From Eledone cirrhosa (Eukaryota), in assembly GCA_964016885.1 (NCBI GenBank), contig OZ024753.1, positions 38,688,001 to 38,752,000 of the forward strand: a DNA stretch of 64,000 bases, read 5' to 3'. The notes under the pieces are model-generated. The model saw nothing but the letters and a program-made list of their open reading frames with translations, ran no database searches and had not been told where the DNA came from. The position numbers were made by a program, and so were the translations under genes. This document shows positions 7,415 through 61,611 of this stretch, piece by piece; within the stretch, counting starts at the first letter, position 1, and every line of letters starts with the position of its first letter.

Positions 7415-7620
7415 ATATAGATGTGAGAAAAACCACAGACCCTCCACCTCAACTCTACTTTTGAAAAGCAGAAGAACTGCGAAACCGGTAAAGGAACCAA
7501 ATAAATATATATATTTAAAAAAAAATAAGACTCCAGTTGCATTTTCGATTTCATCTTTTTTTCTTTATACTTTCACTCGGTTATTTTTCATTCTGTAAAA
7601 AAAACCCTCACTTTCTAATA
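7415..7620. mobile_element. family M element with variant hammerhead-like fold (7456-7495, +)
   Basis: CTT-TTGAAAA-GCAG aagaa CTGC-GAAAC CG GTA-AAG; further copies at about 19097-19330 and 61375-61582 in the opposite orientation. Confidence 0.65.
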
Positions 7621-19045: not shown

Positions 19046-19120
<75 letters not shown>

Positions 19121-19542
19121 AAAAAAGATGAAAACAAAAATGCATCTGGAGTCTTTTTTTAAAATATATTTATTTGGTTCCTTTACCGGTTTCGCAGTTC
19201 TTGTGCTTTTCAAAAGTAGAGTGGAGATGGAGGGTCTGTGGTTTTTCTTACATCTGGTTGGTGTTTGAATGTTACTTCTGTTTTATATGGAAAAAAAGTG
19301 GCTCGAAATGCTAGGTTTTTAGAGAAGTAATTTGGTTGGTTGGTGAATAAGTATATATATAGATAAGTAGTTCCACAACAGTTAGGAAATTGCGGAAAGT
19401 TTTGCCCTTGCAGGAAATGGGGAAGGATCCCCATAACCTTTGGCGTCCCGTTGACAACCACTTGCGTGGAAAATAAACCGGATATGTAATACCAATTGCC
19501 TGTGGTAAATGTTCAATAATAACAATGATAATAATAATAATA

Positions 19543-56515: not shown

Positions 56516-57242
<727 letters not shown>

Positions 57243-61362: not shown

Positions 61363-61573
61363 ATATATATATATAAAAAAAAGATGAAATCGAAAATGCA
61401 ACTGGGGTCTTATTTAAAAAAATATATATATTTATTTGGTTCCTTTACCGGTTTCGCAGATCTTCTTTTCAAAAGTAGAGTTGAGATGGAGGGTCTGTGG
61501 TTTTTCTCATATCTTTATACTTTCACTCGTATAGGACACCTCGTTTATTTTTCATTTTGTAAAAGAACCTCAC

Positions 61574-61611
<38 letters not shown>

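What the first reader, a model, noticed from the sequence alone, without database searches (positions are those of the whole stretch)
7456..7495. UUGAAAA pseudo-core shared by families M and I
Three family M copies (7456, 19179, 61441) and both arms of palindrome I (about 56800 and 56910-56945) keep the hammerhead geometry and an ACCGGTA stem III/GUA site. They have TTGAAAA instead of CTGANGA. This is a C3U plus G8A double change, which would preserve the known 3-8 tertiary base pair (C-G becomes U-A). Stem II covaries (GCAG/CTGC versus GCATTT/AAATGC). Family I additionally has GCAAC for GAAAC.
Basis: partly seen in the sequence, partly recalled or inferred. Interest (0 to 1): 0.7.

Follow-up and report, generated by a model that had tools for sequence, protein, structure and literature searches.

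The report
U3-A8 hammerhead of Penelope retrotransposons
This is the small hammerhead-shaped RNA motif carried by a very abundant group of Penelope-type jumping genes; its swapped core base pair is already published, but one young family also lacks a normally invariant core base, so it likely spreads with a weak or dead self-cutter.

Summary
The motif is real: 5 matches in the window against 0.01 expected, and 32,585 in the genome (control 47). It is the minimal type I hammerhead in the terminal repeat of Neptune/Nematis-like Penelope elements; full-length family M and I copies encode reverse transcriptase and GIY-YIG endonuclease. M and I share the core by descent, and the two I arms are one duplicated copy. 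The 61441 copy has lost stem II.

U3-A8 is the norm for this element group; single mismatches are about 0.5% each. Stems I and II covary across eight related families. A sister family has C3-G8, U3·G8 and U3-A8 states if one inserted base is allowed. U3-A8 is published for Penelope hammerheads (Cervera 2014, with the same UUGAAAA heptamer; Perreault 2011), and this scan noted it before on other DNA, including this genome.

Not found in the papers I could read: A13C, fixed in 12,293 very young family I copies. Stem I is only 3 bp, and cutting is untested (no RNA run was listed). Best reading: a likely weak, dimer-dependent ribozyme whose catalysis may be dispensable for spread.

The parts
7419..7617 (+). 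Family M short copy: 5'-truncated pLTR of a Neptune/Nematis-like Penelope element with tail, ending at an (AT)n tract
   Evidence: 90% identical to the 3' end of full-length copy L061
7458..7460 (+). Stem I 5' strand (CTT), pairs with 7491-7493
7461..7467 (+). Core U3 U4 G5 A6 A7 A8 A9 (U3 = 7461, A8 = 7466)
7468..7480 (+). Stem-loop II, GCAG/CTGC, 5-nt loop
   Evidence: pair probability 0.90
7481..7490 (+). G12 A13 A14, palindromic ACCGGU (7484-7489; predicted intermolecular stem III) and A17; predicted cut after 7490
7491..7493 (+). Stem I 3' strand (AAG)
19114..19324 (-). Family M copy; motif 19213-19184 with 3-bp stem II
61376..61514 (-). Family M copy; motif 61472-61446 with stem II destroyed by a deletion
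61512..61604 (+). Inverted tail piece of the same family M insertion
56626..56870 (-). Family I copy, left arm of the perfect palindrome; motif 56830-56800
56871..57115 (+). Family I copy, right arm; motif 56911-56941 with U3-A8, 5-bp stem II and C13 at 56933
   Evidence: 99.6% identical to the pLTR of full-length copy L228

Best explanation
The motif is the minimal type I hammerhead sequence in the terminal repeat (pLTR) of a group of Neptune/Nematis-like Penelope retrotransposons, with U3-A8 in place of C3-G8; it is predicted to fold only as a dimer through its ACCGGU palindrome and likely cuts slowly, if at all, after GUA. Shown: it lies about 1 kb downstream of the RT + GIY-YIG ORF and again in the upstream pLTR of tandem copies; the window's sites are truncated or inverted insertions in (AT)n tracts; U3-A8 is shared by families M, I, T, T2 and D. 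Inferred: U3-A8 was fixed once in the group's ancestor; the fold stayed under selection between families; most genomic copies were reverse transcribed from RNA in which the motif was uncut (or rejoined), since they run through it; family I (A13C) is likely the weakest cutter.
For: Full-length copies L061 (M) and L228/L249 (I) encode RT, a CxxxxCxxC linker and GIY-YIG (Pfam GIY-YIG above its cut-off, RVT_1 E 4e-6 just below). L228 has the motif at both ends of a 4,851-bp unit plus an inverted copy, and no CTGANGA...GAAA motif inside the unit. Genome counts: U3-A8 32,585 (control 47), C3.A8 206 (29), U3.G8 151 (18). One copy from each of 8 families: 20 of 24 stem I and 26 of 32 stem II positions pair, against permutation means of 11.3 and 15.3 (families are related, so the fractions 1e-4 and 3e-4 are not strict probabilities). 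N7 varies (A, U, C) while U3 and A8 stay. The cofold minimum-energy dimers of M and I pair through ACCGGU with stem II kept. RT-EN tree: the C3-G8-bearing AG family groups with I, T and T2 (bootstrap 97), with M and D outside. The same anatomy, including UUGAAAA with a 3-bp stem I, is published for a Schistosoma mansoni Cercyon element.
Against: No cleavage data. Stem I is 3 bp and is not predicted to form in the window copies (probability 0.00-0.01; 0.55 in the CCTT subfamily). A deep mutational scan of another hammerhead reports low activity for all double mutants of this region except C3G/G8C. Family I has A13C. Family T has a 2-bp stem I, and an old relative (K) shows C3.A8 with a 1-bp stem I in 7 of the fetched loci plus L116 and L308, all picked for that state. 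None of 91 M and 58 I segments begins at the predicted cut site (most loci were chosen to contain the motif, so power is low). The placement of M and D in the tree has weak support (62, 80).
Confidence: 0.7

Rival explanations
1. The motif is catalytically dead in M, I and their relatives; it is a decaying or structural relic (hairpin plus dimerisation palindrome) carried along because reverse transcription starts just downstream of it.
For: A13C in 12,293 copies of a family with identical copies on several contigs; 1-3 bp stems I in M, I, T, K; hammerhead-dead mutants of an anole Penelope element insert normally in vitro; Naiads spread without canonical hammerheads.
Against: Across families whose proteins are only about 50-75% identical, U4 G5 A6, A9, G12, A14, A15.1, the CCGG palindrome and UH stay fixed while stems covary. 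My patterns required these bases, so this conservation is partly built in. No core position varies at 3% or more in M contigs of run X1.
Confidence: 0.2
2. All variants, including A13C, are efficient ribozymes in the cell, rescued by dimerisation or by the element's own protein, and they cut tandem transcripts into unit-length RNAs that circularise.
For: Tandem and inverted copy structure fits the circle model proposed by Cervera and de la Pena; Perreault 2011 states U3-A8 was shown active in vitro.
Against: Published minimal PLE hammerheads cut weakly even as dimers; no pile-up of copy ends at the cut site (weak tests).
Confidence: 0.08
3. The resemblance to a hammerhead is chance in A/T-rich repeat DNA.
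For: TTGAAAA is low in complexity; no hammerhead family is among the best 150 of 461 Rfam matches listed.
Against: Position in the pLTR, stem covariation across families, and a published match of anatomy.
Confidence: 0.02

Closest known systems
U3-A8 minimal hammerheads of Cercyon Penelope-like elements, Schistosoma mansoni (Cervera and de la Pena 2014, PMC4209133; read parts 1-2 of 4 and supplement parts 1-2 of 3)
   Same: Type I, in the pLTR, palindromic stem III, short stem I; S. mansoni(4) has UUGAAAA with a 3-bp stem I; about 1,300 U3-A8 hits reported.
   Different: Here the palindrome is ACCGGU, stem II is 4-5 bp with no extra base after A9 in M and I, the host element has a Neptune/Nematis-type linker, copies exceed 32,000, and family I has A13C. 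The GAAA column of their Fig. S3 reads GAAA (one AGAAA) in the part I saw.
Natural U3-A8 hammerheads (Perreault et al. 2011, PMC3088659; passages read)
   Same: Same covariation, stated to be active in vitro.
   Different: The passages name A6C, A6a, U13a and U15.1-A16.1 as other variants; A13C and a base inserted after position 3 are not in the passages read (Fig. 5 itself not seen).
PAc, Poseidon element of Anolis (Frangieh et al. 2024, PMC11167929; passages read)
   Same: Hammerhead in the pLTR, two fixed 3' ends (tail), A/T-rich targets.
   Different: PAc has C3-G8, with cleavage shown and not needed for insertion in vitro; its ORF starts inside the hammerhead.
Neptune and Nematis clades of Penelope-like elements (Craig et al. 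2021, PMC8557442; passages read)
   Same: C-terminal GIY-YIG, CX2-5CxxC linker, microsatellite targets, tandem and inverted copies, ORF1 separable by a frameshift.
   Different: Not placed against reference elements, so Neptune versus Nematis is open.

Membership tests
Hammerhead ribozyme, canonical consensus | C3 U4 G5 A6 N7 G8 A9 core | tested here: not met
   U3 and A8; met only as the published compensatory variant
Hammerhead ribozyme, canonical consensus | G12 A13 A14, A15.1-U16.1, H17 | tested here: inconclusive
   Met in family M; not met in family I (C13)
Hammerhead ribozyme, canonical consensus | Site-specific self-cleavage after NUH | not testable with these tools
   No assay available
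Minimal PLE hammerhead (min-HHR) | Located in the pLTR of a Penelope-like element | tested here: met
   L061, L228
Minimal PLE hammerhead (min-HHR) | Palindromic, near-absent stem III able to pair between two copies | tested here: met
   ACCGGU duplex -8.3 kcal/mol, used in the predicted dimers
Minimal PLE hammerhead (min-HHR) | Stem II with G10.1-C11.1 | tested here: met
   7461, 19213 and both I arms; not 61472
Minimal PLE hammerhead (min-HHR) | Stem I closing the core (2-5 bp in published cases) | tested here: inconclusive
   3 bp possible and covarying between families, but not predicted to form in the monomer
Penelope-like element, EN+ | RT followed by GIY-YIG endonuclease | tested here: met
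Penelope-like element, EN+ | Tandem or inverted pLTRs, 5' truncation, tail, microsatellite targets | tested here: met
   (family I 3' ends at +161 in 28 and +204 in 26 of 58 segments)
Neptune or Nematis clade | CX2-5CxxC linker between RT and EN | tested here: met
Neptune or Nematis clade | Phylogenetic placement with reference elements | not testable with these tools
   No reference PLE proteins held

The most novel reading that the evidence does not exclude
Family I is a recently active Penelope element whose only hammerhead motif is catalytically dead (A13C on top of U3-A8 and a 3-bp stem I), yet it made over 12,000 copies. With its relatives (U3-A8; C3-G8 plus an inserted base; C3.A8) it forms a natural allelic series showing that hammerhead cleavage is dispensable for Penelope spread in vivo and that the fold is kept for dimerisation or protein binding.
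Probability: 0.35. Interest if true: 0.55.

Novelty: new member of a known kind. Interest (0 to 1): 0.3.

Why it matters
The U3-A8 swap itself adds nothing new. The group matters as test material: why Penelope elements carry hammerheads is open (Craig 2021 calls it unclear; Frangieh 2024 found cleavage unnecessary in vitro). Related families here differ in core state, age and copy number, so one cleavage panel could show whether spread needs catalysis. It also shows that CUGANGA-based searches miss the dominant motif of this class in this genome (32,585 against 101 for the CCGG type).

Tried and rejected
Rfam scan: no hammerhead family among the best 150 of 461 matches listed; 311 were not shown. 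Expression: no RNA holder listed; only contigs could be laid, which cannot show RNA ends. C3-G8 subfamily inside M, I or T2: rejected. Of 15 C3-G8 matches fetched outside the main canonical family, three are true double changes in M- or T2-type context (L063, L066, L068) against 0.7 expected by chance; all 29 nearest relatives of L068 are U3-A8; L065 and L067 are junction artefacts and L064 is unclear. Pile-up of 5' ends at the cut site: not seen; three M segments starting 3 nt upstream have junction microhomology. A conserved in-frame stop in the ORF (readthrough or editing idea): rejected; it is the end of ORF1, with RT-EN in the -1 frame. An alternative UGCGCA dimer created by A13C: same duplex energy but not the predicted minimum. 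The energy of the full dimeric hammerhead could not be evaluated (non-nested). No ORF found for the main canonical CCGG family, so it is not in the tree. Lunse et al. 2017 on PLE hammerhead variants and four other hammerhead papers were not held; the first could already report A13 or insertion variants. The per-mutant data of Roberts 2023 are not in the supplements held; file 1 of the Cervera supplement was not searched.

Full report
Observation. The five sites exist and exceed chance: 5 matches of TTGANAA-N10-20-GMAACCGGTH against a mean of 0.01 in 100 shuffles. At 7461 the anatomy is stem I CTT/AAG, U3-A9, stem II GCAG/CTGC, GAAA, CCGG, UA. The 19213 copy keeps 3 bp of stem II and the 61472 copy has lost it (pair probabilities 0.55 and 0.00 against 0.90). 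The two family I sites are arms of one perfect 291-bp inverted repeat, with a 5-bp stem II and C at position 13. M and I align upstream of the core as well.

What carries it. The window lies in a 3.0-Gb animal genome. Longer M copies extend about 1 kb upstream into an ORF. L061 holds an inverted pLTR piece, the tail, RT, a CxxxxCxxC linker, GIY-YIG, the 3' UTR, the motif and the tail. L228 is the family I equivalent, with the motif at both ends of a 4,851-bp unit and an inverted copy beside it; a scan found no CTGANGA...GAAA motif inside the unit. Copies end in (AT)n tracts at two fixed 3' positions and are often inverted pairs. These are the features of Neptune/Nematis Penelope-like elements in Craig 2021 (passages). 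The window copies match the pLTRs of these elements at 86-99.6%.

How common the states are. With the CCGG palindrome: U3-A8 32,585 (reversed-pattern control 47), C3.A8 206 (29), U3.G8 151 (18), C3-G8 101 (5; GAAA form only). Most listed single mismatches are scattered M or I copies, as expected from decay after insertion. U3-A8 with N7 other than A numbers 2,653 and reveals further families T, T2, D and GATTG. U3-A8 with A13C numbers 12,293 (control 9). Family I is young: the best hits are identical over 220 bases on several contigs, and 10 of 12 copies found by other routes are 97.5-99.1% identical.

Covariation. Copies of one family inherit one source, so only comparisons between families count. 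With one real copy from each of eight families, 20 of 24 stem I and 26 of 32 stem II positions pair, against permutation means of 11.3 and 15.3 (two of the chosen copies are partly decayed, and the families are related). In an RT-EN tree of 17 rows, the AG family groups with I, T and T2 (bootstrap 97), with M and D outside at weak support, so U3-A8 is likely ancestral for the group. The AG family (140 matches, control 0) has one extra base between stem I and U4. Reading it as an insertion after position 3, my hand count of the 100 listed matches gives C-G 57, U.G 19, U-A 18, C.A 2, other 4: a compensatory path through a wobble pair. Against this: the copies reflect few events; the other register gives A3.G8 and G3.A8; and the U.G and U-A copies of the TCG subfamily mostly have a broken stem I. 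An old relative, K, shows C3.A8 with a 1-bp stem I in loci picked for that state; its majority state is unknown.

Mechanism. Stem III cannot close in one molecule; the predicted M and I dimers pair through ACCGGU and keep stem II, as described for minimal PLE hammerheads, which cut weakly even as dimers (Cervera 2014). Stem I is marginal; a CACCTT subfamily, about a fifth of depth in run X1, extends it to 4 bp. Copies run through the intact motif, and 47 of 91 M and 17 of 58 I segments begin 35-48 nt upstream of U3, none at the cut site (most loci were chosen by queries that contain the motif and begin near that position). I infer that reverse transcription starts in the tail and mostly copies uncut or rejoined RNA up to a likely transcription start. 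This fits Frangieh 2024, where dead hammerheads did not reduce insertion in vitro. That A13 is needed for fast cleavage rests on the consensus in Perreault 2011 and on my recall of older mutagenesis; I could not read a measurement of A13C. Roberts 2023 saw rescue only for C3G/G8C, whereas Perreault 2011 says U3-A8 was active in vitro.

What is known. Natural U3-A8 was reported in 2011 and in Penelope elements in 2014, with about 1,300 hits in S. mansoni and a UUGAAAA example with a 3-bp stem I. This scan's earlier notes reached the same view on other DNA, one in this genome; look-ups by the M and I sequences found nothing. Paper searches for A13C with hammerhead gave no relevant listing, but Lunse 2017 was not held, so the novelty of A13C and of the inserted base is provisional.

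Verdict. A real, known type of hammerhead variant in new Penelope families. The only part beyond the literature I could read is the core erosion, above all A13C in a young 12,000-copy family. Interest 0.3.

Noticed in passing
L249, L257, L248, L061, L062, L261 (full-length relatives): ORF1 and the RT-EN ORF overlap in the -1 frame, with a conserved T TTT TTA heptamer at the NHFL/FFR junction in 6 of 6 copies from four families: a likely programmed -1 frameshift. Craig 2021 notes that ORF1 can be separated by a frameshift; 'slippery site' is my recalled label.
   Followed up: partly
L162-L195, L244-L248, L268-L297 (AG family): Hammerhead motif with one extra, variable base between stem I and U4, and a strongly covarying stem II; 140 matches to one pattern. 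Not seen in the papers read.
   Followed up: partly
window 1839(-), 3035(-), 4865(+), 7739(-), 12490(+), 18460(-), 36996(-), 37093(+), 37311(-), 37668(+), 63612(-): Eleven canonical CUGANGA type I hammerhead candidates of other repeat families, most with palindromic stem III.
   Followed up: no
L031-L058 (most), L239-L243: A C3-G8 family with the same CCGG palindrome (most of the 101 matches) has two unpaired bases before C3 and a second CCGG in loop II; no ORF found near the copies fetched.
   Followed up: partly
window 7419-7425 and 56866-56875; many loci: 5' ends and palindrome centres of short M and I copies cluster at a shared CAGAT word 40-48 nt upstream of U3; a possible transcription start or second-strand priming site.
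   Followed up: partly
L298-L303, L306, L308, L116, L120: Old family K with C3.A8 or U3-A8 and only a 1-bp stem I; possibly a decayed ribozyme lineage that still spread.
   Followed up: partly
G000:C1:348863669-348911675: Six family M motifs with the same U3C change at about 9.6-kb spacing, i.e. a tandem segmental array that inflates the C3.A8 count.
   Followed up: no
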